From an uncultured Ectothiorhodospiraceae bacterium (GTDB lineage Bacteria > Pseudomonadota > Gammaproteobacteria > HK1): a DNA stretch of 44,574 nucleotides. The first letter of the stretch is position 1. Every line of letters starts with the position of its first letter. The notes under the pieces were generated by a model. The model worked only from the letters and a program-made list of their open reading frames with translations. It did no database searches and was not told the origin of the DNA. This document shows positions 10,453-29,876 of this stretch, one piece after another. The stretch lies in the NCBI GenBank assembly GCA_964585725.1, contig CAZPFD010000003.1, positions 1 through 44,574 on the forward strand, read 5' to 3'. The position numbers and the translations under genes are program-made.

Positions 10453-10468
10453 TGTGAAATGCTTCACA
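10453..10468. promoter_or_regulatory. candidate CRP/Vfr-family (cAMP receptor protein) binding site
   Basis: TGTGA-AATGCT-TCACA is a perfect match to both consensus half-sites with the canonical 6-nt spacer. Left flank is AAA. It lies 32-77 nt upstream of the possible FHA gene starts, in the only AT-rich patch of this intergenic region. Confidence 0.5.
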
Positions 10469-10499
10469 GATTCACGGATTCCGTCCATGGGAATCTACG

Positions 10500-10952
10500 T
10501 TGTTTCTCCAGCCCGGAAGCGCTGCGACAGGGATCACGGACTCGATGACCACTGGCCCTACGGCTGCCTCGTTTGATTTCAACGAAGACGGTTTCGGCCG
10601 GTTGCCCAAGGGCGAACCGGTGGCCGTCTCGCTCAGACCGAACGAGGCGCTCCCCGTGGTCCTCGCCGACCACAAGTGCCACCTGGTCATGGACGGCGGT
10701 CTGGCTCTGCTCGATACCACCGGCCGGCGCCGTGCGCTGCGCGCCGGGAAGAACATCGTCGGCCGCGACCGCCAGTGCGACGTGGTCATCGAGCAGGACT
10801 TCAAGAACGTCTCGCGCAAGCACCTGCTCATAGAAACCGTGGGCGAGTCCCTCGTGCGGCTCACCGACATCTCGTCGCTCGGAACCCTGGTCCCCTGCGA
10901 GTACCTGGCTTCAGGCGACGCGCGAGCCCGTGCCCGAGGCGTAGCGCTCTAA
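10500..10952 (+). CDS. FHA domain-containing protein
   Basis: FHA core GKNIVGRDRQCDVVIEQDFKNVSRKHLLIE...LTDISSLGTLV (GR, SxxH and S-x-G-T motifs). The track start at 10500 is TTG. The first ATG is at 10545 (MTTGPT...), so the start is uncertain. Confidence 0.7.
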   Translation: MFLQPGSAATGITDSMTTGPTAASFDFNEDGFGRLPKGEPVAVSLRPNEALPVVLADHKCHLVMDGGLALLDTTGRRRALRAGKNIVGRDRQCDVVIEQDFKNVSRKHLLIETVGESLVRLTDISSLGTLVPCEYLASGDARARARGVAL

Positions 10953-11284
10953 TCCATGTGCAGGACCCGGCGCGTACCCTCGCGCTCGAAGACCGCTTGG
11001 CGCTCCCCCACCTCGATCAGGCGATATCCGTTGAGCTCCTCCCCCATCTTCACGATCACCCCGCCCACATTGGCCATGGACTCGCTCCCGTCGACCACGG
11101 TGGCGCGCAGCTGCGTCGATCCCACGGACGCGGCGGGCGCACGCGCCCCGCCGCCGGAACCCGCATCCGCCAAGGCGGCGGGCCGAGCGAAGGGATCGTG
11201 CTCCAGCACCACCGGCTGCTCCTCTGCGCCGGCCGCCGTGGCGCCGAGCAACAACGCAAGCGCTACCCTCAACTGCGCCGTCAT
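10949..11284 (-). CDS. small secreted pilus-assembly protein (MshK/PilP-like)
   Basis: 111 aa. Sec signal MTAQLRVALALLLGATAAGA. C-terminal beta-rich LRATVVDG..ANVGGVIVKMGEELNGYRLIEVGERQAVFE resembles the PilP/MshK/GspC-HR fold pattern. Start overlaps the pilO-like gene by 4 nt. Confidence 0.5.
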   Translation of the reverse strand: MTAQLRVALALLLGATAAGAEEQPVVLEHDPFARPAALADAGSGGGARAPAASVGSTQLRATVVDGSESMANVGGVIVKMGEELNGYRLIEVGERQAVFEREGTRRVLHMD

Positions 11285-11859
11285 TCCTCCTCGCCCTCGT
11301 GCGGGCGATAGGACACCACCCGCAGATTCATGTTGAGCTGTGGGCGCGCTGCCCCCTCCGCGATGTGAAACTCCTTCACTACCATCGGGTGCAAGGCGTC
11401 CTCCGCCTGCTGAAGCCAGCCGAAGAGCTGCATGTACGAGCCGGTGACCTCGACGTCGAACGGGATCTCTTCGAACATCAGCACCCGACCGATCGGTCCG
11501 GGTTTGACTCCGACGAGCTGCACTCCGTGCTTCGTAGCCAGCCGGTCGAGCTGACCGATGATGTAGGAGACCATTTCACTCGACTGGAGCTGCGGCGTCT
11601 GTCCGTACAGGGTCTGCCTCAACTGTTCCACTTCCCGCTCGAGTTGACGCACGTGTGCGTCATTAACCACGCGCCGCTGGGAGCGAATCTCCATGGCGGA
11701 GTCGTCGGCGAGACGGTGCAGCCGCACGTATTCCTTGAGCGGTGCCTCGAGCAGGTAGAAGTACGCCGCCGTCACCGTGACCCCCACCACGGAGACGAGC
11801 ATCAGCAGGAGCATCCGCGGCTCGAGACCTTCGAGGATTCGATCGGCGTTCCGGGCCAT
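11281..11859 (-). CDS. PilO/MshJ/GspM-like pilus assembly protein
   Basis: 192 aa. One TM helix (MLLLMLVSVVGVTVTAAYFYLL), a coiled-coil segment, then a ferredoxin-like C-terminus. Positioned after the pilN-like gene. Confidence 0.65.
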   Translation of the reverse strand: MARNADRILEGLEPRMLLLMLVSVVGVTVTAAYFYLLEAPLKEYVRLHRLADDSAMEIRSQRRVVNDAHVRQLEREVEQLRQTLYGQTPQLQSSEMVSYIIGQLDRLATKHGVQLVGVKPGPIGRVLMFEEIPFDVEVTGSYMQLFGWLQQAEDALHPMVVKEFHIAEGAARPQLNMNLRVVSYRPHEGEEE

Positions 11860-11860
11860 C

Positions 11861-12499
11861 TCAGCTCCCGATCACCACCGCCAGAGTGAAGTCGACGACC
11901 TGCAGCGATTCGTACGCGTGCATCCGCGTGTTGAGAACCTTCACCTCCTCGATCACTGGCTGCGCGTTCAGACGCTGGACGAACTCGGCAAGCGCCGAGT
12001 GGTCGCTCGCCTGTGCCCTGATCTCCATGTGCGTGGCCATCTGCCACGTCCTGGTCTCCGAGGTGCGCTCTCCGGCGGGCACGGTGATGAAGTAGCCGGT
12101 GTTGACGGTCCGCGGATCGGCGGCTACGAACTCGCCCGCGCGCCGGAACGTCCAATTCAAGAACCACACCTGGTTATCGAGCGCCCTGTCCACCGCCACG
12201 AAGATGGCGCGCGGCTCGGCGCCGCTGCGCAGCGCCTCGAGCGCTCGCGCCTTCTGCTCCAGCACTTCCCTGGTCGCTCGAAGCTCCTCGAGCGTCGCCT
12301 TTCGCTCCGCTACGAGCGCCCGGTCGGCATCCAGCTCCTCGAGCTCCGCCGTGCGCACCGTGACGCCGAAAGCGAGAAGCGCCTTGGCGACGATCAAACA
12401 GACGAGAACGGCGCCGTACATCCCGGCGAAGAGCTTGAGCCACCGTTTGGTGCGCCGCAAGCGCCGATAGCTGAGTGGGACCAGATCAATCTCAGCCAT
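11861..12499 (-). CDS. PilN-like fimbrial assembly protein
   Basis: 212 aa. N-terminal IDLVPLSYRR resembles the PilN INLLP motif. A single TM helix and coiled coil follow. Overlaps the pilM-like gene by 8 nt. Confidence 0.65.
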   Translation of the reverse strand: MAEIDLVPLSYRRLRRTKRWLKLFAGMYGAVLVCLIVAKALLAFGVTVRTAELEELDADRALVAERKATLEELRATREVLEQKARALEALRSGAEPRAIFVAVDRALDNQVWFLNWTFRRAGEFVAADPRTVNTGYFITVPAGERTSETRTWQMATHMEIRAQASDHSALAEFVQRLNAQPVIEEVKVLNTRMHAYESLQVVDFTLAVVIGS

Positions 12500-13652
12500 T
12501 CTCCGCCCGTCCCCGAAGGGCGCAACCTGCGGCTATGGCGAATCCGGTGACCGGCTCGCTTTCAGGAAGCTCCGTGTGTTCGCTGGCCGGACCGAACGCA
12601 GCCAACGGGTTCAGGATCCGAACCGGCAAGGACAGCATACCGTTGATCAGCGCCTCTACGCCCGGCCATCGGGCGATGCTGCCGAGCAGGTACACCGTAT
12701 CCACCGATCCTCCGCGTGTCTGCGACGCCGTGTACATCAAGACCTTGGTGACCTCCTCGGCCAGCTCGAGCAGCATTGGCTTGACGATCTCGGTCATCGT
12801 GCGGGCGATCTCGGTCGGCGTCACCACATCCTCGTCGCCGTCTGACGCGCGTTCCGATGACAACCCGTACTGATATACGAGATCACGCACCGACGCCGGG
12901 CTCAGCTCCAGCGTGTCTCCGATGCTCGTGGTGATGATCGCCTCGCCGAAGTTCACCTCGCGGTCCAGTATCAAGCGGCGCCCGGAGATGACCGTGAGAT
13001 AAGTCTTCTCTCGGCCGAAGTTGATGACCAGAACCGTATCGAACGTCTCACGGGAATGCATGTACGCAACCAGCCGGTGTATAGCCACCGGCCCTATCTC
13101 GAGGGCGCTCACATTGAGGCCGGCGCTCTCCATCAGGTGCAGGTAGGCGAGAACGTCGGCTCGGCGCACCAGTGCGAGCAGTGCTCCCCTTTCTCCGTCG
13201 ATCTCACTGCGCGTGGAAACGGGCACGTAGTCCATCAGCCATTCGTCCACGGGACCCTCGACGCGATCCATCGCCTGCCTCATGATGGCCTCCGACTCCC
13301 CGAGATTCGACTGGGGCTTGTAGTTGAGTAGGCTGAGCTTGAGCTGCTCGGGCGGCATACAGGTGACGACGTCCCGTCCTGCAAAAGGGTGCCTGGCCAG
13401 AGCTTCCTTCACCAGCGCGCTGAAGGCCCGAGGATTGGATGTCACCTCATCGCGTGCGGTGCGATAGTGGAGGGATGCGGCGGCCCGCACGCGCAGCCGC
13501 TCGTCGCTGGACTCGAGCTGTAGCATATGCAGCCGCTCGTGACCGAGCTCCAGCCCTATCGGACCGCAGCGGTGTCGCGCCGCATTTCCGCGCGCGGCGA
13601 GCCGAACGAATGGACCGTATACACGCCCCAGAGCCTGCGCCGCGGTGCTCAT
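12492..13652 (-). CDS. PilM/MshI-like actin-fold pilus assembly ATPase-like protein
   Basis: 386 aa. Pattern typical of PilM (GLELGHERLHMLQLE..., LNVSALEIGPVAIHRL, VINFGREKTYLTV, VYLLGSIARWPGV). First gene of a pilMNO(P)-like operon. Confidence 0.75.
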   Translation of the reverse strand: MSTAAQALGRVYGPFVRLAARGNAARHRCGPIGLELGHERLHMLQLESSDERLRVRAAASLHYRTARDEVTSNPRAFSALVKEALARHPFAGRDVVTCMPPEQLKLSLLNYKPQSNLGESEAIMRQAMDRVEGPVDEWLMDYVPVSTRSEIDGERGALLALVRRADVLAYLHLMESAGLNVSALEIGPVAIHRLVAYMHSRETFDTVLVINFGREKTYLTVISGRRLILDREVNFGEAIITTSIGDTLELSPASVRDLVYQYGLSSERASDGDEDVVTPTEIARTMTEIVKPMLLELAEEVTKVLMYTASQTRGGSVDTVYLLGSIARWPGVEALINGMLSLPVRILNPLAAFGPASEHTELPESEPVTGFAIAAGCALRGRAENG

Positions 13653-13861: not shown

Positions 13862-15061
13862 TCATCCAGCTGCGGTTCGCATGGCCGCGTCGGGATCGGC
13901 CAGCTTGCAGGAAACGAAATGGACTTCGCCCCGGTGGTTCGACTTTCTGGCCTTGGCTTCGTACAGCACCTGATCGGCCGCTCTGTAAAGGACGTCCTCC
14001 GACGCCGGGACGCTGGGGGCCACGGTCACCAATCCCACGCTCACGCTGATCTCCGGGCCTTGCGCACCAACGCCCGGCTCGGGCGGACATCCGAGATGCT
14101 GGCGCAGCTTGGCGAATCCGCTGCCGACGACAGTCTCCGGGTCCGTTGCCGTGAACAGCAGGGCGAACTCGTCTCCACCCATCCGCACCAGATATCCCTG
14201 GTCACCCAGCGGTTCCTGGAAGGCGGTGACCACCGCCTTCAGGATCTTGTCTCCGTACTCATGACCATAGGTGTCGTTCAGCGGTTTGAAGTCGTCGACG
14301 TCGAGCAGGGCGTAGTGATAAGCGCGGTTGTCCGCACGCCACCGGTCGACGGTGGATGCGAAGTTGCTCATCAGGTATCGCCGATTCCACGCGCCGGTGA
14401 GGGGATCCTTGTTGGAGAGCATGGTCATCCGCTTGTGGGCATTCTCCAACTCATAGCGAGCGACGATATCGCTCTTGCGGACGCTCGCGTTTCGGGTTAC
14501 GAGCGCCAGACTGATGATGCCTGCACCCGCCATGACGAGCTGCAACGCCCACAAAGCCTCCCTGTCGAAGCGTGCGGCGTTCCCCGCAGTGGAGAAGGTG
14601 AACACGGCATAGATGAGCATCGTTACTGCAAATGCTTCACGCAGCCCCCACGGAACCATCGGAATGACCATGAACAGCAAGGCGACCCCTGCAAACAACG
14701 AGAGACTGAACGTACCGGTCTTGTGCGCCAGGAGCACGAATGCGGTTCCGCATACGACCAGCAGGCTCATGCCGAGCAGATAGAGCGAGTTCAGATCCTT
14801 CAACAGGCGGGCCGAGACGAAGACATGGGCGGCCAGCAGCGCCAGCAGCATGGAGGTATAGAGATAGGTGTATCCGAATCCGAGGCCTGCGTAGAGCACC
14901 GATTGCCCGCATAGAAGGAGCAGTGCCACCGCGCTCATGGCCGCGAGACCCTTGCGGGTCTCTTCGATCATCATGTAGTGCGCATAGCTGCTCAGCTCCT
15001 GCGCGCCGAAGCGAGTCGTTGACCAGACGTGATGGAGGCTCTCTACGAACTTACGGTACAT
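13862..15061 (-). CDS. membrane-bound diguanylate cyclase (GGDEF)
   Basis: Start chosen at ATG 15061 (MYRKF...). The track ORF extends to 15259. About six hydrophobic helices, then DPLTGAWNRRY...DVDDFKPLNDTYGH...RMGGDEFALLF with an intact GGDEF. Confidence 0.85.
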   Translation of the reverse strand: MYRKFVESLHHVWSTTRFGAQELSSYAHYMMIEETRKGLAAMSAVALLLLCGQSVLYAGLGFGYTYLYTSMLLALLAAHVFVSARLLKDLNSLYLLGMSLLVVCGTAFVLLAHKTGTFSLSLFAGVALLFMVIPMVPWGLREAFAVTMLIYAVFTFSTAGNAARFDREALWALQLVMAGAGIISLALVTRNASVRKSDIVARYELENAHKRMTMLSNKDPLTGAWNRRYLMSNFASTVDRWRADNRAYHYALLDVDDFKPLNDTYGHEYGDKILKAVVTAFQEPLGDQGYLVRMGGDEFALLFTATDPETVVGSGFAKLRQHLGCPPEPGVGAQGPEISVSVGLVTVAPSVPASEDVLYRAADQVLYEAKARKSNHRGEVHFVSCKLADPDAAMRTAAG

Positions 15062-15332: not shown

Positions 15333-15704
15333 ATGAGGAAGATCCTTCTTGTAGAGGACGACATCATGAGCCGGGATCTTCTGGCGCGCCGCCTCAGAAG
15401 CAGAGGATTCGAAGTTGTAACTGCTGGAGACGGTGCACGCGCTCTCGAGCTGGCTCGCGAGTCCCGCCCCGACCTCATCGTTATGGACATGAGTTTGCCG
15501 GTGAAGGACGGCTGGGATACCGTGCGCGAGCTCAAGAGTCGCGGCAGCACAAAGGACATTCCGATAGTCGCGCTCACGGGTTACGACCGTATCGGTGACC
15601 GCGAACAGGCGCTCCAGGCGGGCTGTACGGAGTTCGAGAGCAAGCCCGTTTCTTTCAAACGCCTCATCGCCAAGATCGGCGCCATCCTGGACCTTCCGGA
15701 GTAG
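15333..15704 (+). CDS. stand-alone response regulator receiver protein (CheY-like)
   Basis: 123 aa. ILLVEDD, DLIVMDMSLPVKDG (phospho-acceptor Asp), IVALTGY and ESKPVSF receiver signatures. Confidence 0.85.
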   Translation: MRKILLVEDDIMSRDLLARRLRSRGFEVVTAGDGARALELARESRPDLIVMDMSLPVKDGWDTVRELKSRGSTKDIPIVALTGYDRIGDREQALQAGCTEFESKPVSFKRLIAKIGAILDLPE

Positions 15705-21071: not shown

Positions 21072-21641
21072 CTACAGATCCTCGGTCAGGGTCCCGTCGC
21101 TCAGCGTCTGACCGTCGTTGGCGATGAACCGGCCGGTCTTGAGGTAGAACTTCCAACCCGTATTGTCGTTGGGCGTCCCATCGGCGGCCGCTACCGTGAT
21201 ATCGTCCTCGGCGATGTCGACGGTCACGTCCTGGTCCAGGGTTTCATCCATCGTGAACGGGTTCGGCGGCAGGGCGCTGGTCTTGATATAGGGCCCGAAG
21301 CGATGCGTCGCATCCTTCACCGCGCTCACCGCGCCCGATTTGTCGGTGTACTGCGTGAGCTGCTTGACGAAGGCGGCGGCTGCCTCCGCTGCCGAGCCGA
21401 CGGGACCCGACCCGTCCTCTTTAATAGCCCCCGGGTAGTTGGCGTTGTGCTGGTGGTAATAAAGTTCGACGGCATCCCGCAGCTGCGCCAGATCCGTCTT
21501 CACGGTCGCAACCTTGGCGTCCTCGGTGGAGGCACCGAACTGCGGCACGACGATAGCCGCCAGAATCGCCAGAATGATCACGACGATCAGCAGCTCGACG
21601 AGCGTGAATCCTCGGTGCTTGACCCGCATTCTGTGGCTCAT
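21072..21641 (-). CDS. major (pseudo)pilin, GspG-like
   Basis: Start at ATG 21641 (MSHRMRVKHRG|FTLVELLIVVIILAILAAIVVPQF). Alternative ATG at 21629. TVKTDLAQLRDAVELYYHQHNANYPG resembles the GspG core. The track ORF extension to 22001 is unsupported. Confidence 0.8.
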   Translation of the reverse strand: MSHRMRVKHRGFTLVELLIVVIILAILAAIVVPQFGASTEDAKVATVKTDLAQLRDAVELYYHQHNANYPGAIKEDGSGPVGSAAEAAAAFVKQLTQYTDKSGAVSAVKDATHRFGPYIKTSALPPNPFTMDETLDQDVTVDIAEDDITVAAADGTPNDNTGWKFYLKTGRFIANDGQTLSDGTLTEDL

Positions 21642-21745: not shown

Positions 21746-22045
21746 TCATAGCACCCCAACCAGAAGCAGCGCCAGGCCGCCCGTCAACAGCGCCGCCCCG
21801 AACGAGCGGGGGTTGCGCCGTATGAATCCGTCCCAGTGGAAGGTGTGCTCCAGCACCGGCCGGTTGAGGGCGTCCTCGATGAGGTGTTCGCAGCGCCAGC
21901 CCAAGCGCAGGGCGAACAGATACCCCGGGCTGAACGGCGCATTCATGATCTCCTCGATGCGAGACACCGCATCGGGAGCCAGCAGGAACAAGGCCCCCCA
22001 CGATGCGGCGAGTAATCCCACGATGGGAATCAACGCCTCATGCAT
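21746..22045 (-). CDS. small hypothetical membrane protein
   Basis: Good GC3 codon bias. GGAG lies 8 nt upstream of ATG 22045 (the track start at 22063 is TTG). Hydrophobic helices at both ends (IPIVGLLAASWGALFLL; GAALLTGGLALLLVGVL). No family recognised. Confidence 0.4.
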   Translation of the reverse strand: MHEALIPIVGLLAASWGALFLLAPDAVSRIEEIMNAPFSPGYLFALRLGWRCEHLIEDALNRPVLEHTFHWDGFIRRNPRSFGAALLTGGLALLLVGVL

Positions 22046-23299: not shown

Positions 23300-25363
23300 T
23301 CAGCTGTGGATCACGCGCGTGACCTCGTCGATGGTGGTCTTGCCATCGAAAGCCTTGCCGATGCCGTCGGAGTACAGGGATTTGATGCCGCGCTTTGCTA
23401 TGTGCCGCGCCAGCGCATCCCGCGACGGGCTCGAGACCATGAGCCGCTGAGTTTCGGCGTCGCACTCGAAAATCTCGTGGATGGCGATGCGGCCCTTGTA
23501 CCCGGAGTCGTAGCACGACGGACAGCCGCGCCCGCGGACGAGGCGCATCTTCTCCGATACTTCGAGGCCGCGCTGAGCCAGTGACTCGGGCGATGCCACG
23601 TAGGAGGTCTTGCACTCCGAACAGACGGTTCGCACCAACCGCTGGGACATCACGCCTATGAGCGCGGACGAAAGCAGGAAAGGCTCTACCCCCATGTCGA
23701 GCAACCGTGTGATGACCCCGGCCGCGTCGTTGGTGTGCAGCGTGGACAGCACGAGGTGACCGGTGAGGGCGGCCTGCACGGCGATCTGAGCGGTCTCCCG
23801 CTCGCGTATCTCTCCGACCATGACGACGTCCGGATCCTGGCGAAGCACGTGCTTGAGCATCTTGGCGAAACCGAGCCCGATATCGTCCTTGATCTGGTTC
23901 TGGTTCACGAGATCGAGCTGGTACTCCACTGGATCCTCGATGGTGACGATGCTCTTCTCGATGCTGTTCAGATAGCTGAGGCCCGCATAGAGCGTCGTCG
24001 TCTTGCCGCTGCCGGTCGGGCCGGTGACGAGTATGAGTCCGTGCGTGTAGGCGAGGAGGCGTCTGAACGTCGCCAGGTTCTGTTCGCTCAGCCCGAGCCG
24101 GTCGATGTCCATCACCGAGCGTGCCTTGTCCAGCACTCGCAGGACGACCTTCTCGCCGAAGATGCCCGGAAGCGAGCTGAAGCGCAGATCGATGGTGCGC
24201 CCCTGGGTGTAGACCTGCATTCGCCCGTCCTGGGGCATGCGGCGCTCGGCGATGTCGAGATTGGCCATGACCTTGAGGCGCGATACCAGCGATGGGTGGA
24301 TCTCGATGGGCAGCTCCATCGTCTGATAAAGCACGCCGTCGATACGGAATCGGATGCGACAGCGAGAGCGAGACGGCTCGACGTGGATATCGCTGGCGCC
24401 GTCTCGAATCGCTCTTTGCACCAGGCCATTGACCAGGTTGATGACCGGGCTTCCGGAAGCCATCTCGTCGATGGCGGAGAAGTCCCCCGGTATCCGGCCA
24501 TCGACCAGCTCGAAGTCCGTTTCCGAGTCGAGCTGGCCGATGTATTCGGAGAGGTTGTAGTCGTCCTTGGCGGGCGCGCCTATGACGTCGAGGATGTCCT
24601 CCGTGCACGCGAGAACGGGGCGGGTCTTGCAGCCGGTGAGCTCCTCCACCGTGTCGAAGCTGGGGATGGCGTGGGGGTCGGCGCACGCGAGATAAAGCGC
24701 GCCGCGCACCTTGAACAGAGGCGCGAGCCGAAGTCGCTTGGCGATGTCGGGGCTGAGCAGCTCGACCACCTCCGGATCGAACAGCCCGGGGCGAAGGCGA
24801 ACAAAGGGGAGCATGAACTGCTCGCTCAGCACGGTCAGCAGCTCCGCCTCCTTGAGCAATCCCCGCTCGAGCAGAATGTTTCCGAGCCGCTTGCCGGTGG
24901 TGCGCTGAACGTCCAGAGCGTCGTTGACGGCCTCCTCGTTGAGGAGGCCGCGCTCTATCAGCCGCTCCCCGAGCTTCCAAGGCTGCTCCGGGCCGAGCGG
25001 CTGCATGCCGGCGTCGGTTCCGGAGCCGAGCTCCTTTTGGTCGGAGAGCGTGATGTAATGCTGCAGTCCCGTGAGCCTGAAGACATCACGGACGGTGGCG
25101 TTTGCGTGTGCGATCTTCAAGTCACCGCCGATGCGGGTTACGCGATCCTGGGTATCCAGCAGCACCTCCAGCGCCGCGCTGTTGACCAGCGTCACGTTCA
25201 CGAAATCCAGAACCAGATGGATGTCGCCGGCCTTGATGCAGGCGTCCATGGTCTCGGTCAGATTGGCGAGATCACTGCGATCGGTGAGTGATCCCGGAGG
25301 GGCCAGGTAGGTGACAAGCCCGATGCGGGAATGGACGACCTCAGACACGGGCCCTCCCCGCAT
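23300..25363 (-). CDS. STAS-MshEN-GspE/PilB-family secretion ATPase
   Basis: 687 aa. Walker A GPTGSGKTTT, Asp/Walker B DPDVVMVGEIRE, tetra-Cys CSECK...CPSCYDSGYKGR. Residues ~10-110 are SpoIIAA/STAS-like (HLVLDFVNVTLVNSAALEVLLD...VRDVFRLTGL). Residues 130-182 are two 24-aa MshEN motifs. Confidence 0.9.
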   Translation of the reverse strand: MRGGPVSEVVHSRIGLVTYLAPPGSLTDRSDLANLTETMDACIKAGDIHLVLDFVNVTLVNSAALEVLLDTQDRVTRIGGDLKIAHANATVRDVFRLTGLQHYITLSDQKELGSGTDAGMQPLGPEQPWKLGERLIERGLLNEEAVNDALDVQRTTGKRLGNILLERGLLKEAELLTVLSEQFMLPFVRLRPGLFDPEVVELLSPDIAKRLRLAPLFKVRGALYLACADPHAIPSFDTVEELTGCKTRPVLACTEDILDVIGAPAKDDYNLSEYIGQLDSETDFELVDGRIPGDFSAIDEMASGSPVINLVNGLVQRAIRDGASDIHVEPSRSRCRIRFRIDGVLYQTMELPIEIHPSLVSRLKVMANLDIAERRMPQDGRMQVYTQGRTIDLRFSSLPGIFGEKVVLRVLDKARSVMDIDRLGLSEQNLATFRRLLAYTHGLILVTGPTGSGKTTTLYAGLSYLNSIEKSIVTIEDPVEYQLDLVNQNQIKDDIGLGFAKMLKHVLRQDPDVVMVGEIRERETAQIAVQAALTGHLVLSTLHTNDAAGVITRLLDMGVEPFLLSSALIGVMSQRLVRTVCSECKTSYVASPESLAQRGLEVSEKMRLVRGRGCPSCYDSGYKGRIAIHEIFECDAETQRLMVSSPSRDALARHIAKRGIKSLYSDGIGKAFDGKTTIDEVTRVIHS

Positions 25364-25381: not shown

Positions 25382-27652
25382 TCATCGCCGCGGGCCCTCG
25401 CGCTCGCCGCCTTCCACACGCTCTCTCAACTCGGCAGCTTCCGCCGGGAGTTGACCGGGTGGCGCTGCCGGGTTGGCGTCGCCGACGCCGAATAGATACT
25501 CCGCCAGAGGGCGCGGCCTTCCTATGGCGAACCCCTGCACGAAGTCGACGCCGACGTCGCGCAGGCGACCCAGCATCCACGTTTCTTCCACGAACTCGGC
25601 GATCGTTTGAAGACGCATCACGTGTCCGATGCGGTTGATGGCGTCGACCATCACGTAATTGATGGGATCCTCGATCCCGCGGATCAGCGAGCCGTCGATC
25701 TTCAGATAGTCCATCGGAAGCTGCTTGAGACTCGAGAAGGAGCTGACGCCCTCGCCGAAGTCATCCAAAGAGAAACGGCAACCGCGCTCACCGAGAACCT
25801 GCATGAAGCGAACCGCGGCACCCAGGTTGGAGATGGCGGCCGTTTCGGTGATCTCGAAGCATATGCGCTCGGGTGCGACCCCCGAATCCTCGAGGGCGCG
25901 CATGGCGAACTTGAGAAATTCTTCCTCCGAGAACGATTGGCGGGAGATGTTGATGGCGCATTGCAGCTCGAAACCGGTGGCGGCCAGCGCCTCGAGGGTG
26001 TTGCGGATGACCCAACGATCCACCGCCGGCATGGACCGGTAGCGCTCGGCGGCCGGGATGAATCGAGTGGGGGCGGTGATTCGGCCGGCTTCGTCCAGCA
26101 TGCGCACCAAGACCTCGCAATGCGGCACCGCAGGGGCGCCCTCGGACAAAGGCTTTATCGGCTGCGCATAGAGCTGAAGACGATCCTCCTCCAGTGCGCG
26201 CTGGATTCGGGGCACCCATTGCATCTCCTGGTGGAACGCGGCGTACGTGGCGTCGTCGCGACGGTGCAGGTAGGCGCGGTTGTATCCCTGCTGCTTGGCG
26301 ATGCGGCACGCGGTATCCGCAGTGCTGAGGATCTCCGACACCGGACCGGAGTCGGCGGTGACGGTTGCGACACCCACGCCTGCGCTGATGTCGAAGGGTT
26401 TGCCATCCCAATGGAAACGGTGCTGGTTGATGGCCCTGATGAGCTTCCGTGCAATGAGGACAGCCCGTTTGGCCGGACAGTCTTTCAGCAGGACGGCGTA
26501 CTCGTCGTCCCCCAGGCGCGCCAGCACGTCGTCGCTGCGCATTCGCGCCTCCAGGAGCGATGCCACCTGCCGCAGCAGCTCGTCTCCGGCGGCGGATCCG
26601 CAGGTGTCGTTCACGATCTTGAAGCCGTCGAGATCGAGAAACAGCAGGGCGTGCTCTGCATCCGCACTGCGAGCGAGGAGCACGCTCTCGGTCAGGCGCT
26701 GCTCGAAGCCGCGTCGATTCAGCAGACCCGTGAGCGCGTCGCGGCTCGCCTGCAAGACGGTCGCGGCCTGCTCGGCGAGAACCTCCAGCAGCTTCCTGTC
26801 ACCGTTGCTGAAGTCCGCCCGCCCCGGGAGGTTCACGATGGCGATGAGCCCGAGTACATCGGATCGTGTCGCCAGAATGGGCGAGACCAGCAGCTTCACG
26901 GGGAAGGGCGAAGAGGCGTGCTGCCAGGGCGAGTCCGCCGCATCGTTGGCGACGATGCTGGCCCGCGCGTCCTTCACGCGGCGATACAGCGGGTGACGCA
27001 GCGCAGGCCATACCTCCCACAGCCAGGCGGAGTCGGACTCGCCTTCGTCGCGCTGGCGCTTGATCTCCAGCTTGTCCCCCGGAACCGCGAGAACGGCGCC
27101 GTCCACGCCGAGGTAGGCGATGCAGTCCTCCACCAGCCGGGTCAGCACCTGGCGTCCGTGCTCGGGCTCGTACTTGTGAACCTGCTCCTCCGTCGTGTAG
27201 ACGAGATTGAGCTCCTCGCAGCGCGCCGTGAGCTCGGCCGCCATGCTGTCCAGCTCCAGATTCAACCGGTACTCCTGAAGCAGGCACGACCCGATGCCGG
27301 CGAGGGCGCATTCCAGCCCCTGCTCTGCGGGCGGCCCCGCGGGCTGCGCGCCGGAGTCCACGAGCACCGCGATGGCCGCGACCTGCTCCTCCGGCTCGGC
27401 CTCCAGCGCTTTCACCAGGAGCCGCTTGCCCGACCCGATGTCGCGCGCGAGCGCGGTGCCCCTCTCCATCGCTTGCGAAACGCACAGAGCCGCCTCGAGC
27501 TCGGACCTACAAGGGGTATCCGCCACCCACACGGGCCGTCCCGTCCGGTCGCAGACGGCGAACCCGATCACTTTCCCCAAGGCGGGATCGATGAGCAGCT
27601 CGCAGAGGCGTCGATACTTGTCCGGGTCCAGCGCGCCGAGCGGACGATCCAT
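25382..27652 (-). CDS. GAF-GGDEF(degenerate)-EAL protein, probable c-di-GMP phosphodiesterase
   Basis: Start at ATG 27652 (ATGA overlap with the receiver gene stop). The track ORF extends further. GGDEF position reads LGDDEY. EAL domain has EVLVR, AINIS, EITE, DDFGEGVSS, KIDGSLI and QGF. Confidence 0.85.
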   Translation of the reverse strand: MDRPLGALDPDKYRRLCELLIDPALGKVIGFAVCDRTGRPVWVADTPCRSELEAALCVSQAMERGTALARDIGSGKRLLVKALEAEPEEQVAAIAVLVDSGAQPAGPPAEQGLECALAGIGSCLLQEYRLNLELDSMAAELTARCEELNLVYTTEEQVHKYEPEHGRQVLTRLVEDCIAYLGVDGAVLAVPGDKLEIKRQRDEGESDSAWLWEVWPALRHPLYRRVKDARASIVANDAADSPWQHASSPFPVKLLVSPILATRSDVLGLIAIVNLPGRADFSNGDRKLLEVLAEQAATVLQASRDALTGLLNRRGFEQRLTESVLLARSADAEHALLFLDLDGFKIVNDTCGSAAGDELLRQVASLLEARMRSDDVLARLGDDEYAVLLKDCPAKRAVLIARKLIRAINQHRFHWDGKPFDISAGVGVATVTADSGPVSEILSTADTACRIAKQQGYNRAYLHRRDDATYAAFHQEMQWVPRIQRALEEDRLQLYAQPIKPLSEGAPAVPHCEVLVRMLDEAGRITAPTRFIPAAERYRSMPAVDRWVIRNTLEALAATGFELQCAINISRQSFSEEEFLKFAMRALEDSGVAPERICFEITETAAISNLGAAVRFMQVLGERGCRFSLDDFGEGVSSFSSLKQLPMDYLKIDGSLIRGIEDPINYVMVDAINRIGHVMRLQTIAEFVEETWMLGRLRDVGVDFVQGFAIGRPRPLAEYLFGVGDANPAAPPGQLPAEAAELRERVEGGEREGPRR

Positions 27653-28050
27653 CACGCGCAGGGAGCTCCTTCGGCGGGTGGGCCCGCGAAGTGCTCGTCG
27701 AGGCGGGCGTGCAGCCGGCGCAAGCTCAACGGCTTCTCGAGCAGCTCGGTATTGGGGAGAAAACGCACCCACTCGCGCGCCGCGAGCTCGGGACGCGCGG
27801 TGATGACCAGCGTGAGCGGCTGAGCGCCGGGAAACTCGCGGTGCATCGCCTCGCAAAGAGCGCGACCGTCCAGGCGCGGCATCTCGATGTCAGTGATGAC
27901 GACATGAAAGCTCTCCTCCCTCAGCTTGCGCAACGCCTGCTCGCCGTTGGAGGCCGTCTCCACCGTGTAACCCTTGCCTTCGAGCCCGAGCCGTATCACC
28001 CGCACGACGTGAGGTTGATCGTCCACGAGAAGTATCCGCCGGCTGGTCAA
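27652..28050 (-). CDS. stand-alone response regulator receiver protein
   Basis: 132 aa. ILLVDDQPHVV, VVITDIEMPRLDG, LTLVITA. Start overlaps the kinase stop by 4 nt. Confidence 0.85.
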   Translation of the reverse strand: MTSRRILLVDDQPHVVRVIRLGLEGKGYTVETASNGEQALRKLREESFHVVITDIEMPRLDGRALCEAMHREFPGAQPLTLVITARPELAAREWVRFLPNTELLEKPLSLRRLHARLDEHFAGPPAEGAPCA

Positions 28051-29876
28051 ACGGCTTCTCTCAGCAGGATGGGCGTTTTCTTGAGCTCGATCGTGAACTC
28101 ACTCCCCTGACCCGGCGCGCTTTCCAGCCTGATCCGCCCCTGATGCAGCTCGACGATCTCCTTGGCGAGCGCGAGACCCAGGCCGTGGCCCGTCCTCTCA
28201 CGCACGTCTTCGCGATCGGAGCGGAAGAACTTGCTGAATATGCTTGCCTGATCCTCGGGAGCGATCCCGATCCCCGTGTCGCGCACGGAAATGAGGATGT
28301 GATCCTCCGTTTCGGTGGCGGACAGCAAGACCTGGCCGTTGGGCCGGTTGTATTTGACCGCGTTGGTCAGCAGATTGTTGATTGCAATCCGAAGCAGTCT
28401 CTTGTCGACGTGCACGGCGCTCAGCTGATTGGGCACGTCGAGCTTCATATCGAGCCCCCGATCGGCGGCGCTGCGCGCGACGTTGTCGAACGCGTCCTTG
28501 AGCAGATCCCCCAACCTGATGCGCTGGCGCTCCAGAGAGACGCTGCCCATCTCGATCTCCGCGATATTGAGCATGTTGTTGATCAACATGCCGACCAGCT
28601 CCACTTCGTCCTTGATGACGTTGCCAGCCTCCACGCGCACGGCATCCGAGTCCTTGTCCCCATCGAGCAGCATCTCGCCGTACATGCCGATGACGTGCAG
28701 CGGCGTCTTCAGCTCGTGGGCCAGGCGGGCCACAAACTCCTTGCGCGCCTTCTTGGCCAGCGACTCCGCGGTGACGTCGTGGAACACGATCATGGTGCCG
28801 TAGATTCGGGAACCGCCGCTCGGCGAGAACAGCGGATAGGCGCTCACCGCGATCTCCCTGTCGGGCGCATGCTCCGGGATCATCCGAATGCTCCCCATCT
28901 CGTTGCGGCGCGCGGTGCTGCGCATGAAGTTCGAGACAAAGGCGAGAAGCTCGGGTGACTTGCACCACTCGTTCGGTTTGAGTCCGGCGATAGTGTCGGC
29001 CTCGATGCCGATCAGCGCGCTCAGCTTGCGGTTCGCGAAAGTGACGGCGCCCGACTCGTCCATTACCACCACCCCCTCGGGCAGGGACTGGAGCACGGAC
29101 TCGATGCGCGCCTTCTGGTACGAAAGGACCTTGGCCGAAGCCACCTTCTCGGAGTGCTCGGACTCGAGCGCGCAGATGCGGGCCTCCGCCGCTTTCACGA
29201 TGCGGTTGAAATGCCGGATGAACTCCCCGATCTCGCCCGAGGCCTCCAGCTCCACCGTGCGCACCACGTTGTCGTCGACGATCGACTGAATGCGATCGCT
29301 CGCCTCGCGCAGGGGCTGCACCTCGCGCTTGACCAGGTAGTAATAGAGGGGCGCGAGCAGGAATACCGGCAGGGCCAGCCATGCGAAGTACGGCAGTTCC
29401 TGGCTCACGAGGGCCCAGCCGGGCTCGACGTACCCCACGCGTACGTATCCCTGCAGCTCGCCGCCGTCGAGCACGGGGGCGTGAAACTCGCGGAACTCGC
29501 GCCCACCGCGGACGTCGGCGATCTCGCGTTCTCCGAACCAGGACGAGGGTTCGCCCGGCAACGCCAGCGCGGGAACGATCACACCCGGCGCCGTAACCTC
29601 GAGCAGGTCCTCGCCGTCGGGGCGCGACACCACGGCGTAGGCGAAGTCGGGGTTTCCCTGAGTGGACTTGACCAGCGCCAGCGGGCCTTGCTCGCCCTCA
29701 TCCGGGATGAGCTGCGCCAGGGACATGCTGGAGAGCAGGCGCGCCAGGCTCACCCCCTGAACGCGAATCTGAGAGAGCCGAGAGGAACGGTGGGACTCGA
29801 ACGAGACACCGATGATGAGCGCGATCACGAGCAGTGACGACGCGACCATCATCAGGCCAAGACGCTCGCTTTTCAT
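28047..29876 (-). CDS. sensor histidine kinase (periplasmic sensor-HAMP-PAS-HisKA-HATPase)
   Basis: 609 aa. Two TM helices flank a periplasmic region of about 150 aa. H-box LAHELKTPLHVIGMYGEML, N-box NNLLTNAVKYN, G1 DTGIGI, G2 GHGLGLALAKEIV. Confidence 0.85.
   Translation of the reverse strand: MKSERLGLMMVASSLLVIALIIGVSFESHRSSRLSQIRVQGVSLARLLSSMSLAQLIPDEGEQGPLALVKSTQGNPDFAYAVVSRPDGEDLLEVTAPGVIVPALALPGEPSSWFGEREIADVRGGREFREFHAPVLDGGELQGYVRVGYVEPGWALVSQELPYFAWLALPVFLLAPLYYYLVKREVQPLREASDRIQSIVDDNVVRTVELEASGEIGEFIRHFNRIVKAAEARICALESEHSEKVASAKVLSYQKARIESVLQSLPEGVVVMDESGAVTFANRKLSALIGIEADTIAGLKPNEWCKSPELLAFVSNFMRSTARRNEMGSIRMIPEHAPDREIAVSAYPLFSPSGGSRIYGTMIVFHDVTAESLAKKARKEFVARLAHELKTPLHVIGMYGEMLLDGDKDSDAVRVEAGNVIKDEVELVGMLINNMLNIAEIEMGSVSLERQRIRLGDLLKDAFDNVARSAADRGLDMKLDVPNQLSAVHVDKRLLRIAINNLLTNAVKYNRPNGQVLLSATETEDHILISVRDTGIGIAPEDQASIFSKFFRSDREDVRERTGHGLGLALAKEIVELHQGRIRLESAPGQGSEFTIELKKTPILLREAV

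What the first reader, a model, noticed from the sequence alone, without database searches (positions are those of the whole stretch)
10453..29876. Self-contained type IV filament locus (MSHA/T2SS hybrid) without a secretin, carrying its own c-di-GMP, cAMP and phosphorelay genes
Structural genes lie in two minus-strand units. One runs HK-REC-(GAF-GGDEF*-EAL)-(STAS-MshEN-GspE)-GspF-small membrane protein-GspG-like-GspH-like-GspI-like-TSP3 pilin-giant GspK/PilX-like. The other is PilM-PilN-PilO-MshK/PilP-like. Between them sit a membrane GGDEF cyclase and a REC plus DHp-DHp-REC-adenylate cyclase pair. An FHA gene closes the locus. Both flanks are housekeeping genes (the beta-oxidation operon and maeB), so the locus boundaries are inside the window. 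No secretin (GspD/PilQ/MshL), prepilin peptidase, GspC/L or PilT-like retraction ATPase is present. In MSHA loci mshL normally follows mshK, but here a convergent FHA gene follows it. The pseudopilin set looks T2SS-like, whereas the inner-membrane module and the ATPase N-domain look MSHA/T4aP-like. The density of signalling genes is unusual: three cyclic-nucleotide enzymes, three receivers, STAS and FHA. I cannot tell from sequence alone whether this architecture is already catalogued.
Basis: partly seen in the sequence, partly recalled or inferred. Interest (0 to 1): 0.8.

Follow-up and report, generated by a model that had tools for sequence, protein, structure and literature searches.

The report
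Pilus-machine locus that lost its secretin
This is an intact gene cluster for a type IV filament (pilus-like) machine of a widespread but unnamed family; its small lineage has lost the outer-membrane pore gene that every other sampled family member carries, yet the remaining genes are still kept by selection.

Summary
Nineteen intact genes lie at 10500-29876 with the stated domains. No secretin, prepilin peptidase, GspC/L or PilT is in the window, and both flanks are housekeeping genes.

The locus is not a one-off hybrid. It belongs to a conserved, apparently unnamed type IV filament family found in Gammaproteobacteria (including cultured Oceanimonas), Myxococcota, Nitrospirae and Desulfobacterales. 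The family order is HK, REC, c-di-GMP phosphodiesterase, STAS-MshEN-ATPase, GspF, G-H-I pseudopilins, Asp-rich GspJ-like pilin, DNRLRE/CBM96 GspK-like protein, membrane GGDEF, PilMNOP, short secretin.

All 12 distinct canonical loci that reach past the PilP-like gene have a secretin there. The window and its relatives (65-85% PilM identity) form one nested clade (199/200 bootstraps) that lacks it. No remnant is detectable. The clade has instead a convergent FHA gene, a REC plus DHp-DHp-REC-cyclase pair and a small membrane protein. Every gene tested shows dN/dS below 1 (0.07-0.43; FHA up to 0.61), so this is not recent decay.

Most likely it is a c-di-GMP-gated filament machine that now uses a secretin encoded elsewhere. 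A periplasm-confined filament is the more novel alternative. I rate it a new variant of a known kind, of moderate-to-high interest.

The parts
28047..29876 (-). Sensor histidine kinase: two TM segments with an extracytoplasmic domain, then PAS, HisKA, HATPase_c. First gene of the long operon.
   Evidence: Pfam. A weak sCache/HAMP hint in the N-terminal part. It is the first gene in all 12 related loci that reach upstream of the ATPase.
27652..28050 (-). Stand-alone receiver domain (REC1)
   Evidence: Response_reg E=1e-20. Conserved in most family loci.
25382..27652 (-). GAF-GGDEF(degenerate, GDDEY)-EAL protein, a predicted c-di-GMP phosphodiesterase
   Evidence: Pfam. Motifs read. Some relatives have a GAF-HD-type phosphodiesterase in this position.
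23300..25363 (-). STAS-MshEN-T2SSE extension ATPase with both 24-residue c-di-GMP-binding motifs
   Evidence: Pfam. NCBIfam c-di-GMP_motif 56.4>38. Motif definition from PMC5013675. Ser62 aligns with the SpoIIAA phospho-Ser. At least 120 clusters of full-length homologues, almost all with a recorded STAS hit.
22173..23294 (-). GspF/PilC-type inner-membrane platform protein
   Evidence: T2SSF E=2e-52. GspF model 301.5 bits against a cut-off of 424.
21746..22045 (-). 99-aa protein with hydrophobic N- and C-terminal segments; seen only in the secretin-less clade
   Evidence: No family hit. Present in L027-L030. dN/dS 0.33-0.43.
21072..21641 (-). GspG-like major (pseudo)pilin, 189 aa, with Gly-1/Phe+1/Glu+5
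   Evidence: N_methyl. Best NCBIfam hit GspG at 50 bits, below cut-off.
20498..21034 (-). GspH-like minor pilin
   Evidence: N_methyl and a weak GspH hit. Best NCBIfam hit GspH.
20061..20474 (-). GspI-like small minor pilin, assigned by position, size and prepilin motif
   Evidence: Sequence G|LSYVE. Conserved in all family loci. No significant family hit.
19074..20009 (-). Asp-rich GspJ-like minor pilin, 311 aa, with an Asp-rich insert of about 140 aa
   Evidence: N_methyl. AF2 model pLDDT 93. The top three PDB fold matches are EpsJ/XcpW-type, E 0.03-0.05. 196 clusters at E<=1e-10 in 1.84 billion representatives.
17338..19077 (-). GspK-like cap candidate: pilin-like N-terminus without Glu5, DNRLRE/CBM96 beta-sandwich, and an unassigned C-terminal domain of about 270 aa
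   Evidence: CBM96 E=3e-14. DNRLRE_dom 111 bits against a cut-off of 34. Orthologues of 503-1392 aa sit at the same position. AF2 single-sequence model failed.
15708..17306 (+). HisKA-HisKA-REC-class III nucleotidyl cyclase; clade-specific
   Evidence: Pfam. Absent from all canonical loci. Present in L027-L030 and L032. dN/dS 0.08-0.12.
15333..15704 (+). Stand-alone receiver (REC2), co-directional with the cyclase
   Evidence: Response_reg E=1e-25. A lone opposite-strand REC sits at this position in sister loci L031 and L035.
13862..15061 (-). Multi-pass membrane diguanylate cyclase with an intact GGDEF motif and no RxxD I-site
   Evidence: GGDEF E=4e-29. Sequence. Common at this position across the family.
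12492..13652 (-). PilM-like actin-fold assembly protein
   Evidence: PilM_2 E=7e-24.
11861..12499 (-). PilN-like protein; its N-terminus EIDLVP resembles the PilM-binding INLLP motif
   Evidence: PilN 22.5 bits against a cut-off of 22.8. Sequence. The INLLP comparison rests on my own knowledge.
11281..11859 (-). PilO/GspM-like protein
   Evidence: PilO E=3e-8. A weak GspM_XpsM hit.
10949..11284 (-). PilP/MshK-like periplasmic protein with a signal peptide. In canonical loci it is the gene directly before the secretin.
   Evidence: 37-46% identity to the pre-secretin gene of canonical loci. dN/dS 0.20-0.23. Only a faint T2SSB hit.
10500..10952 (+). Small FHA-domain protein, convergent with the PilP-like gene; their stop codons overlap. 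It occupies the place of the secretin. The real start is probably near 10575, giving 125 aa as in relatives.
   Evidence: FHA 29.2 bits against a cut-off of 20.7. Conserved in L027-L029 even where the outer flank differs. dN/dS 0.23-0.61.

Best explanation
**What is shown.**
- The locus encodes a complete inner-membrane and periplasmic type IV filament assembly machine of a conserved, so far unnamed family.
- The family order is HK, REC, c-di-GMP phosphodiesterase, STAS-MshEN-ATPase, GspF, pseudopilins G-H-I, Asp-rich J-like pilin, DNRLRE/CBM96 K-like protein, membrane diguanylate cyclase, PilM-N-O-P, short secretin.
- The window belongs to one nested sub-lineage that lost the terminal secretin gene in a single event.
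- That sub-lineage gained a REC plus DHp-DHp-REC-cyclase pair, a small membrane protein and an adjacent FHA gene.
- It has kept all remaining genes under purifying selection.

**What is inferred.**
- The membrane GGDEF cyclase and the GAF-GGDEF*-EAL phosphodiesterase set a local c-di-GMP level, under control of the kinase and receiver.
- c-di-GMP binds the two MshEN motifs of the ATPase and licenses polymerisation of the GspG-like pilin on the GspF/PilMNOP platform.
- The filament is primed by an H-I-J-K-type tip complex whose K-like member carries a carbohydrate-binding-type domain.
- The STAS domain, whose conserved Ser aligns with the SpoIIAA phosphorylation site, adds a second switch.
- In this clade the class III cyclase adds a cNMP input, possibly read by the GAF domain of the phosphodiesterase.
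- The PilP-like secretin adaptor is still conserved, so the filament most likely leaves the cell through a secretin encoded elsewhere in the genome. The prepilin peptidase must likewise be supplied in trans.
For: **Family and synteny.**
- The same gene order appears in L001-L017, L031, L034 and L035, from Gammaproteobacteria (Methylobacter, Methylomonas, Oceanimonas, Ectothiorhodospiraceae, Thiodiazotropha), Myxococcota, Deltaproteobacteria and Nitrospirae; a short Desulfobacterales contig (L016) carries the marker pilin only.
- Full-length homologues of the ATPase, almost all with a recorded STAS hit, form at least 120 clusters at 54-91% identity.
- The marker pilin has 196 clusters at E<=1e-10.

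**Secretin.**
- A secretin directly follows the PilP-like gene in all 12 distinct canonical loci that reach that point.
- Where the genes beyond it could be identified (five loci) they are housekeeping or unrelated.

**Derived loss.**
- On a PilM neighbour-joining tree the window, L028, L029 and L032 are monophyletic in 199 of 200 bootstraps.
- They are sister to the secretin-bearing L031 and L035 in 177 of 200.
- No secretin remnant is detectable in any clade locus.

**Still functional.**
- dN/dS is 0.07-0.33 against L028 and 0.09-0.43 against L029 for all machine genes.
- The aligned machine genes contain no internal stops.

**c-di-GMP gating.**
- Both 24-residue MshEN motifs are present and the NF053729 model passes its cut-off.
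- The membrane cyclase has an intact GGDEF. The other protein has a degenerate GGDEF and an intact EAL.

**Tip complex.**
- The order is G-H-I-J-K.
- The AF2 model of the Asp-rich pilin has pLDDT 93, and its top three fold hits are GspJ-type.
- The K-like protein lacks Glu5 and carries a DNRLRE/CBM96 domain.

**STAS.** Ser62 aligns with the SpoIIAA phospho-Ser and is conserved in at least 80% of 120 family ATPases.
Against: - No whole genome of the clade could be scanned, so a trans-acting secretin is assumed, not shown.
- No family-type orphan secretin was found. The two closest candidates tested (P0260, P0266) sit in canonical loci.
- No expression or filament data exist for any family member.
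- Whether the family makes a surface pilus or a T2SS-like endopilus is undecided. The pseudopilin set and the lack of a retraction ATPase fit a T2SS as well.
- The GspJ fold matches are weak (E 0.03-0.05, TM 0.18-0.32).
- dS against L029 is near saturation for several genes.
- The relatives are MAG or metagenome contigs.
- The roles proposed for STAS, GAF, FHA and the cyclase are inferred from domain identity alone.
Confidence: 0.6

Rival explanations
1. Secretin-independent machine. In this clade the filament never crosses the outer membrane. It works as a periplasm-confined endopilus, acting as a piston, scaffold or envelope sensor, driven by the same ATPase. The newly acquired cyclase, REC and FHA genes rewire its control.
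For: - The secretin loss is old enough to span 65-85% PilM identity, and every machine gene stays under purifying selection.
- The loss coincides with four clade-specific gains: cyclase, small membrane protein, FHA, and REC next to the cyclase.
- No remnant and no family-type orphan secretin was found.
Against: - The PilP-like protein, whose homologues (PilP, GspC HR domain) bridge to the secretin (my own knowledge), is retained with dN/dS of about 0.2.
- The K-like protein keeps a large ligand-binding-type domain that makes most sense outside the cell.
- T2SS and T4P secretins are often encoded away from the rest of the machine (my own knowledge).
- The genomes could not be scanned.
Confidence: 0.17
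2. The family, and this locus, is a T2SS-like protein secretion system rather than an adhesive pilus. The G-H-I-J-K set forms a short endopilus that pushes substrates through a secretin. The DNRLRE/CBM96 protein is only the cap, or a substrate-recognition element.
For: - The order G-H-I-J-K, the K-like protein without Glu5, and GspJ-type fold matches.
- Best NCBIfam hits are GspG, GspH and GspF, and GspM_XpsM for the PilO-like protein.
- No retraction ATPase in any locus examined.
Against: - All T2SS equivalog cut-offs are missed.
- PilM/N/O/P stand in place of GspL/M/C.
- The family secretins are short (435-487 aa) and fail the GspD model.
- The K-like proteins vary from 503 to 1392 aa with adhesin-type modules (CBM96, Laminin_G_3), which resembles tip adhesins.
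- c-di-GMP-activated MshE-type ATPases are best known from adhesive pili (PMC5013675).
Confidence: 0.15
3. A decaying remnant. After the secretin was deleted the locus became useless and is eroding.
For: - The cognate secretin is missing.
- Island GC is lower than the flanks.
- Related loci show disruptions: an IS in GspF of L001 and a split GspF call in L027.
Against: - All 19 ORFs are intact and match the lengths of relatives.
- dN/dS is 0.07-0.43 across three diverged lineages with dS of 0.45 or more.
- The arrangement is conserved in at least four independent contigs.
Confidence: 0.04
4. It is a known, named system, either a bona fide MSHA locus or a canonical T2SS, whose secretin was simply moved.
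For: - An MshE-type c-di-GMP motif in the ATPase.
- A GGDEF-EAL gene in the locus, as MshH is in MSHA loci.
- A single-locus organisation without a prepilin peptidase, as in MSH systems (PMC6668835).
Against: - Only 38% identity to Aeromonas MshE.
- No MshM or MshN, and a different gene order from the verified MSHA locus L033.
- Family secretins score 129-144 against the MshL cut-off of 250, whereas the Aeromonas MshL scores 279.
- All PilB, GspE, GspF, PilM, PilQ and GspD equivalog cut-offs are missed.
- No open-access paper joins a STAS domain with an MshEN, PilB or GspE ATPase.
Confidence: 0.04

Closest known systems
MSHA (MSH) pilus system of Vibrio, Aeromonas and Shewanella
   Same: - A single locus without a prepilin peptidase or a retraction ATPase.
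- An extension ATPase with an N-terminal MshEN c-di-GMP receptor.
- A GGDEF-EAL protein encoded in the locus.
- PilM/N/O/P-equivalent genes (MshI/J/K) followed by a secretin.
- A very large last 'pilin-like' protein with lectin-type modules, comparable to MshQ.
   Different: - The gene order is reversed: here ATPase and pilins come first, then the MNOP genes and secretin.
- No MshM or MshN.
- The ATPase has an extra N-terminal STAS domain and is only 38% identical to Aeromonas MshE.
- Family secretins fail the MshL model.
- The pilin set follows the T2SS order G-H-I-J-K.
- A dedicated histidine kinase and receiver are present.
- In the window clade the secretin is absent.
Type II secretion system (Gsp/Xcp/Eps)
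   Same: - ATPase, GspF, then G-H-I-J-K gene order.
- A K-like member without Glu5.
- The J-like fold of the Asp-rich pilin.
- No retraction ATPase.
- The best, though sub-threshold, NCBIfam hits of several components are Gsp models.
   Different: - No GspC or GspL; separate PilM, PilN, PilO and PilP-like genes instead.
- Short secretin of 435-487 aa in canonical members, none in the window.
- The J- and K-like proteins carry large inserts: Asp-rich loops and DNRLRE/CBM96 plus variable C-terminal domains.
- The ATPase is STAS-fused with an intact c-di-GMP motif.
- Its own two-component and c-di-GMP genes are encoded in the locus.
Type IVa pilus alignment subcomplex (PilMNOPQ)
   Same: - PilM_2, PilN and PilO domains in the order M-N-O-P, followed by a secretin in canonical members.
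- A PilN N-terminal motif resembling the PilM-binding peptide.
- PilB of Geobacter, Thermus and Myxococcus are the best solved-structure matches of the ATPase.
   Different: - A single locus.
- No PilT or PilU.
- No PilQ-type AMIN domains.
- No FimU-PilVWXE/PilY1 set.
- The PilB and PilM NCBIfam cut-offs are missed.
'Generic' type IV filament systems of Denise et al. 2019 (PMC6668835)
   Same: The locus contains the three components that define that catch-all class: ATPase, inner-membrane platform and major pilin. The class treats the secretin and prepilin peptidase as optional.
   Different: 'Generic' is a residual class, not a described system. I found no description of this family's composition (STAS-MshEN ATPase, Asp-rich J-like pilin, DNRLRE K-like protein, dedicated signalling genes).

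Membership tests
MSH (MSHA-type pilus) | MshL-type secretin (NCBIfam TIGR02519 equivalog; mandatory in the MacSyFinder MSH model) | tested here: not met
   The window has no secretin. Canonical family secretins score 129-144 bits against a cut-off of 250.2, whereas the Aeromonas MshL control scores 279.
MSH (MSHA-type pilus) | MshM (mandatory) and MshN present in the locus | tested here: not met
   No such genes in the window or in canonical loci, where the system ends with the secretin. Model definition from PMC6668835.
MSH (MSHA-type pilus) | MshE-type ATPase with the 53-residue c-di-GMP-binding MshEN motif | tested here: met
   NF053729 scores 56.4 bits against a cut-off of 38. Both 24-residue motifs can be read in the sequence. 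However, identity to Aeromonas MshE is only 38%.
Type II secretion system | GspE and GspF equivalogs (TIGR02533, TIGR02120) | tested here: not met
   GspE 557.8 against a cut-off of 630.25; GspF 301.5 against 424.
Type II secretion system | GspC, GspL, GspM and a GspD secretin | tested here: not met
   No GspC, GspL or GspD in the window. The PilO-like protein scores 27.8 against the GspM_XpsM cut-off of 60. Family secretins score 161-184 against the GspD cut-off of 351.
Type II secretion system | Pseudopilin set G-H-I-J-K, with K lacking Glu5 | tested here: inconclusive
   Order, sizes and prepilin motifs fit. GspG and GspH are the best but sub-threshold hits. The J-like fold is supported only weakly. 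The K-like model failed.
Type IVa pilus | PilB and PilM equivalog/subfamily models (TIGR02538, TIGR01175) | tested here: not met
   PilB 560.2 against a cut-off of 675.65. PilM 94.1 against 133. The Pfam PilM_2 domain itself is met.
Type IVa pilus | PilT-type retraction ATPase and PilQ secretin | tested here: not met
   None in the window. None in the annotated related loci. The rest of the genome is not testable.
Unnamed STAS-MshEN-ATPase type IV filament family (defined here by synteny) | STAS-MshEN-T2SSE ATPase preceded by a PAS histidine kinase and followed by GspF | tested here: met
Unnamed STAS-MshEN-ATPase type IV filament family (defined here by synteny) | Five-member pilin set ending in the Asp-rich 300-330-aa pilin and a DNRLRE/CBM96 protein | tested here: met
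Unnamed STAS-MshEN-ATPase type IV filament family (defined here by synteny) | PilM-N-O-P-like genes followed directly by a short secretin as the last gene | tested here: not met
   PilMNOP are present, but the secretin is absent in the window and in L027-L029. It is present in 12 of 12 distinct canonical loci that reach that point.
'Generic' TFF system (Denise et al. 2019) | ATPase, inner-membrane platform and major pilin clustered, fitting no specific model | tested here: met
   The components are present. The definition is from PMC6668835. MacSyFinder itself was not run.

The most novel reading that the evidence does not exclude
A whole sub-lineage of a type IV filament family has dispensed with any outer-membrane secretin. 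It runs the machine as a periplasm-confined filament under combined c-di-GMP, cNMP and phosphorelay control. This would be a new functional mode for a complete TFF assembly platform in a diderm bacterium.

Independently of that, the parent family would be a new named class of type IV filament system. Its features are the STAS-MshEN ATPase, the Asp-rich J-like pilin, the DNRLRE/CBM96 K-like tip protein and a dedicated TCS plus DGC/PDE.
Probability: 0.15. Interest if true: 0.85.

Novelty: new variant of a known kind. Interest (0 to 1): 0.6.

Why it matters
[quoted passage not shown] This family has about 200 clusters at 50% identity for its marker pilin and spans several phyla, including cultured Oceanimonas and Oceanisphaera. 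I found no description of it in the searchable literature.
- **Unusual regulation.** It joins a c-di-GMP receptor and a STAS switch on the motor ATPase itself. It also encodes its own kinase, receiver, cyclase and phosphodiesterase, so it is a compact case of local second-messenger control of a nanomachine.
- **A natural experiment.** The secretin-less clade shows the same machine kept by selection after loss of its cognate pore. That makes two questions directly testable. Can TFF machines share secretins? Can an assembly platform have a function that never reaches the cell surface?

Tried and rejected
1. Exact look-ups of the window ATPase and of its 91% relative P0001 found no record. I reached the close relatives through PilM instead.
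2. I looked for a relocated family-type secretin. The profile search returned more than 2000 secretins, and the top 120 were all strong. The two hits closest to the sister lineage (P0260, P0266) lie in canonical loci.
4. The AF2 single-sequence model of the CBM96 protein was unusable (pLDDT 39). No PDB sequence relative exists. Relaxed Pfam scans of its C-terminal 274 residues and N-terminal 139 residues found nothing.
5. The TSP_3 label was not supported by Pfam at E<=5, and no thrombospondin appears among the top 50 fold matches.
6. A plasmid search found no family member. The best hit was 42% identical and none covered the STAS domain. It did supply a verified Aeromonas MSHA locus as a control.
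7. The promoter and terminator scan gave nothing beyond chance.
8. There are no tRNA genes and no flanking direct repeats at the island ends.
9. I did not build a reference-anchored ATPase/GspF phylogeny because I lacked enough reference sequences. HMM cut-offs and pairwise identities were used instead.
10. The 'dead locus' and 'annotated MSHA with moved mshL' readings were rejected on the evidence above.

Full report
**1. What is in the window**

The window is GC-rich (about 70% in the flanks). I called genes by codon-position GC and checked each with Pfam and NCBIfam.

Between 10500 and 29876 there are 19 intact genes.

The long minus-strand unit runs as follows:
- PAS-HisKA-HATPase kinase (28047-29876)
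- REC (27652-28050)
- GAF-GGDEF-EAL (25382-27652)
- STAS-MshEN-T2SSE ATPase (23300-25363)
- T2SSF platform (22173-23294)
- 99-aa two-TM protein (21746-22045)
- GspG-like pilin (21072-21641)
- GspH-like pilin (20498-21034)
- GspI-like pilin (20061-20474)
- 311-aa Asp-rich pilin (19074-20009)
- 579-aa protein with a pilin-like N-terminus and a DNRLRE/CBM96 domain (17338-19077)

Gaps within this unit range from -4 to 127 bp.

On the plus strand lie REC (15333-15704) and HisKA-HisKA-REC-Guanylate_cyc (15708-17306).

A second minus-strand unit holds a multi-pass membrane GGDEF (13862-15061), PilM (12492-13652), PilN (11861-12499), PilO (11281-11859) and a 111-aa PilP-like protein (10949-11284).

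A convergent FHA gene (10500-10952) overlaps the PilP-like stop codon.

The flanks are beta-oxidation genes on the left and DUF4124 plus a malic enzyme on the right. No gene anywhere in the window matches Secretin, Peptidase_A24 or a second T2SSE/PilT-type ATPase, and none matches a GspC or GspL family model. The island has 64.5% GC against 69-70.5% in the flanks, and a lower GC3. There are no tRNA genes and no flanking repeats.

Two labels need correction:
- The 'TSP3' pilin gives no TSP_3 hit even at E<=5.
- The PilP/MshK-like gene has no significant family hit of its own.

**2. It belongs to a conserved, widespread family**

A search with the ATPase returned at least 120 clusters of full-length homologues at 54-91% identity, almost all with a recorded STAS hit. 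The named ones come from Gammaproteobacteria, Ectothiorhodospiraceae, Thiodiazotropha and Myxococcota MAGs.

Neighbourhoods of four of them show the same order as the window: HK, (REC), (GAF-GGDEF-EAL or GAF-HD), ATPase, GspF, pilins, 315-328-aa pilin, CBM96 protein of 503-1392 aa, (GGDEF), PilM and onward.

The Asp-rich pilin is 47-59% identical between these loci. Used as a marker, it recovered further loci from GTDB genomes:
- Methylobacter
- Methylomonas
- Oceanimonas marisflavi 102-Na3 (a cultured isolate)
- Deltaproteobacteria
- Nitrospirae
- Desulfobacterales
- Myxococcota

In 1.84 billion 50%-identity representatives the pilin has 196 relatives at E<=1e-10.

**3. The secretin**

I ran tblastn of all island proteins, plus the secretins of L002 and L003, against every locus. 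I added the later neighbourhoods.

Every canonical locus that reaches past the PilP-like gene has a short secretin immediately downstream (435-487 aa where the start was clear). There are 12 such distinct loci: L002/L012, L003, L007, L008, L009, L010, L013, L014, L015, L031, L034 and L035/L036.

Where the genes after the secretin could be identified (L007, L008, L013, L031, L034) they are housekeeping or unrelated (tRNA synthetases, pseudouridine synthase, aminotransferase, LysR, poly(A) polymerase). The secretin is therefore the last gene of the system there. The canonical system has no prepilin peptidase, PilT, MshM or MshN.

In the window, family secretins find nothing (tblastn at E<=10 and an HMM on the six-frame translation). 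There is also no room for a remnant, because the FHA and PilP-like genes overlap.

**4. The loss is shared by a clade and is not decay**

PilM relatives at 85% identity (two MAGs, GCA_011774245.1 and GCA_012974725.1), 68% (Logan contig L032) and 65-67% (JGI and Logan contigs L029 and L030) have exactly the window's variant. The shared features are:
- a CBM96 protein of 574-583 aa
- the opposite-strand REC plus cyclase pair
- the 399-aa GGDEF protein
- PilMNOP
- a convergent FHA of 125-130 aa
- no secretin
- the small membrane protein after GspF

L029 then continues into the same aldolase-SDR and thiolase genes as the window. In the two MAGs an integrase/TIR/terminase island is inserted beyond the FHA gene.

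The cyclase, the FHA gene and the small membrane protein are absent from all canonical loci. The nearest secretin-bearing lineage (L031 and L035, 46-49% PilM identity) already has a lone opposite-strand REC at the same spot, but no cyclase.

On a PilM neighbour-joining tree the secretin-less loci are monophyletic in 199 of 200 bootstraps. They are sister to L031 plus L035 in 177 of 200, nested among secretin-bearing lineages. The loss is therefore one derived event.

Nei-Gojobori dN/dS values are shown below.

| Comparison | dN/dS, machine genes | dS | Note |
|---|---|---|---|
| window vs L028 | 0.07-0.33 (15 genes) | 0.45-0.95 | PilP-like 0.20 |
| window vs L029 | 0.09-0.43 | 0.67-2.1 | FHA 0.61; PilP-like 0.23 |

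There are no internal stops in the aligned machine genes. The locus is under purifying selection, so the 'dead locus' and 'recent decay' readings are rejected.

**5. Is it a named system?**

No component reaches an NCBIfam equivalog cut-off.

| Component | Model | Score | Cut-off |
|---|---|---|---|
| ATPase | PilB | 560 | 676 |
| ATPase | GspE | 558 | 630 |
| Platform | GspF | 301 | 424 |
| PilM-like | PilM | 94 | 133 |
| Family secretins | PilQ | 172-183 | 284 |
| Family secretins | GspD | 161-184 | 351 |
| Family secretins | MshL | 129-144 | 250 |

As a control I used a verified Aeromonas caviae MSHA locus (L033), whose MshL scores 279 against the cut-off of 250. Its MshE is only 38% identical to the window ATPase, and its gene order differs. 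The best solved-structure relatives of the ATPase are Geobacter PilB (466 bits) and, lower, Vibrio EpsE (421 bits).

[quoted passage not shown] MshM is absent here. By that paper's definitions the family would fall in the residual 'generic' class.

Full-text searches found no paper that joins a STAS domain with an MshEN, PilB or GspE ATPase, and none that links DNRLRE with a pilin system. The search covers open-access papers only.

**6. How it most likely works**

*Shown from sequence:*
- The ATPase has both 24-residue MshEN motifs: KLGERLIERGLLNEEAVNDALDVQ, a five-residue spacer, then RLGNILLERGLLKEAELLTVLSEQ.
- These fit the published motif and its relaxed form (PMC5013675).
- The NCBIfam c-di-GMP motif model passes its cut-off, and the motifs are conserved across the family.
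- The membrane cyclase has an intact GGDEF motif.
- The GAF protein has GDDEY in place of GGDEF but intact EAL signatures (EVL, EITE, DDFG, KID).
- Some relatives replace that protein with a GAF-HD type. A c-di-GMP phosphodiesterase upstream of the ATPase is therefore the conserved feature.
- STAS Ser62 aligns with the residue that differs between the two SpoIIAA entries matched (DSSG in 1th8, DASG in 1tid). From my own knowledge this is the phospho-Ser, Ser58.
- That Ser is conserved in at least 80% of 120 family ATPases.
- Four pilins have Gly-1 and Glu+5. The 579-aa protein has G|FLLLP without Glu5, as GspK does.
- The AF2 model of the Asp-rich pilin (42-sequence alignment, pLDDT 93, pTM 0.87) shows a pilin helix, a C-terminal sheet and an Asp-rich insert of about 140 residues without regular secondary structure.
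- Its three best PDB matches are all GspJ-type (EpsJ 3cfi_B, XcpW 6utu_B and 9a1f_S). They are weak: E 0.03-0.05, probability 0.90-0.96.

*Inferred:*
- The kinase and receiver tune a local cyclase/phosphodiesterase pair.
- c-di-GMP, and possibly STAS phosphorylation or partner binding, licenses the ATPase.
- The GspG-like pilin is polymerised on the GspF/PilMNOP platform beneath an H-I-J-K tip.
- The K-like member of that tip carries a carbohydrate-binding-type module, so the filament is probably adhesive or ligand-binding.
- In the window's clade a class III cyclase adds a cNMP input. It has a Lys in KTIGD, which suggests ATP as substrate; I did not test this. The GAF domain of the phosphodiesterase could read that signal.
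- The roles of the FHA gene and the small membrane protein are unknown.

**7. What the missing secretin means**

The PilP-like protein is retained under constraint; its homologues bridge to the secretin (my own knowledge). The K-like protein keeps its large extracellular-type domain. Secretins of other TFF systems are often encoded apart from the rest of the machine (my own knowledge).

The most likely reading is therefore that the clade uses a secretin encoded elsewhere, either relocated or borrowed from a T2SS or T4P. The prepilin peptidase must be supplied in trans, as in all family members.

The alternative is a filament confined to the periplasm. The data do not exclude it, and it would be the more novel outcome.

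**8. Verdict**

The locus is a secretin-less, signalling-enriched variant of a widespread, apparently undescribed type IV filament family. It is not a unique hybrid, not a decayed locus and not a known named system. I rate it a new variant of a known kind, with interest 0.6.

Limits of the evidence:
- The relatives are mostly MAG or metagenome contigs.
- The tree is neighbour-joining on a single protein.
- dS is near saturation in the more distant comparison.
- All functional statements rest on domain identity and synteny.

Noticed in passing
L027:13437-20732 and L028:13419-20714: In the two closest MAGs an island sits directly beyond the FHA gene, where the window and L029 have aldolase-SDR and thiolase. 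It carries an integrase, a 654-aa TIR_2 protein, a Terminase_2 gene and hypothetical genes. It could be a defence or prophage remnant, and it marks this junction as a recombination hot spot.
   Followed up: no
L001:13202-14578; L027:310-1378; L017:10001-10950: Some family loci are disrupted. A DDE transposase splits GspF in L001. GspF is called as two pieces in L027. The Asp-rich pilin of L017 is broken over several frames. Each could be real decay or an assembly error.
   Followed up: no
L031:9508-9879 and L035:5043-5408: The nearest secretin-bearing lineage has a lone opposite-strand REC gene between the membrane GGDEF and PilM. It looks like an intermediate state before the window clade acquired the HisKA-HisKA-REC-cyclase beside it.
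   Followed up: partly
Proteins P0256, P0268, P0271, P0276, P0280 (OmpA fusion); P0260 / L034:2063-4243 (SH3 fusion): Some family secretins carry N-terminal OmpA-like or SH3 peptidoglycan-binding-type domains. This suggests variable anchoring of the pore to the cell wall.
   Followed up: no
L012:17699-18868: A second, divergent PilM-like gene follows the secretin directly in the Ectothiorhodospiraceae locus. A 527-aa protein without family hits comes after it.
   Followed up: no
window:19350-19770 (residues about 90-232 of the Asp-rich pilin): The Asp-rich insert of about 140 residues is predicted with high confidence (pLDDT above 89) yet has almost no regular secondary structure. It holds about nine DxDxDG-like loops, and many Asp positions are invariant across 42 homologues. 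It is probably a multi-calcium-binding module inside a GspJ-like pilin.
   Followed up: partly
window:15708-16250: The cyclase protein carries two HisKA (DHp) domains, each with the conserved His, but no HATPase_c domain. It may act as a phosphotransfer or phosphatase module rather than as a kinase.
   Followed up: no
window:37089-39326(+) and 37299-38180(-): A long plus-strand ORF overlaps a minus-strand LysR-type regulator. Only its C-terminal part matches an ArsP_1 permease. The true permease gene probably starts after the LysR gene, so the 5' part of the ORF is spurious.
   Followed up: no
window:1094-1663(-): A PhaR-type PHB accumulation regulator and an SDR reductase lie upstream of the beta-oxidation genes. 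This is ordinary housekeeping context.
   Followed up: no
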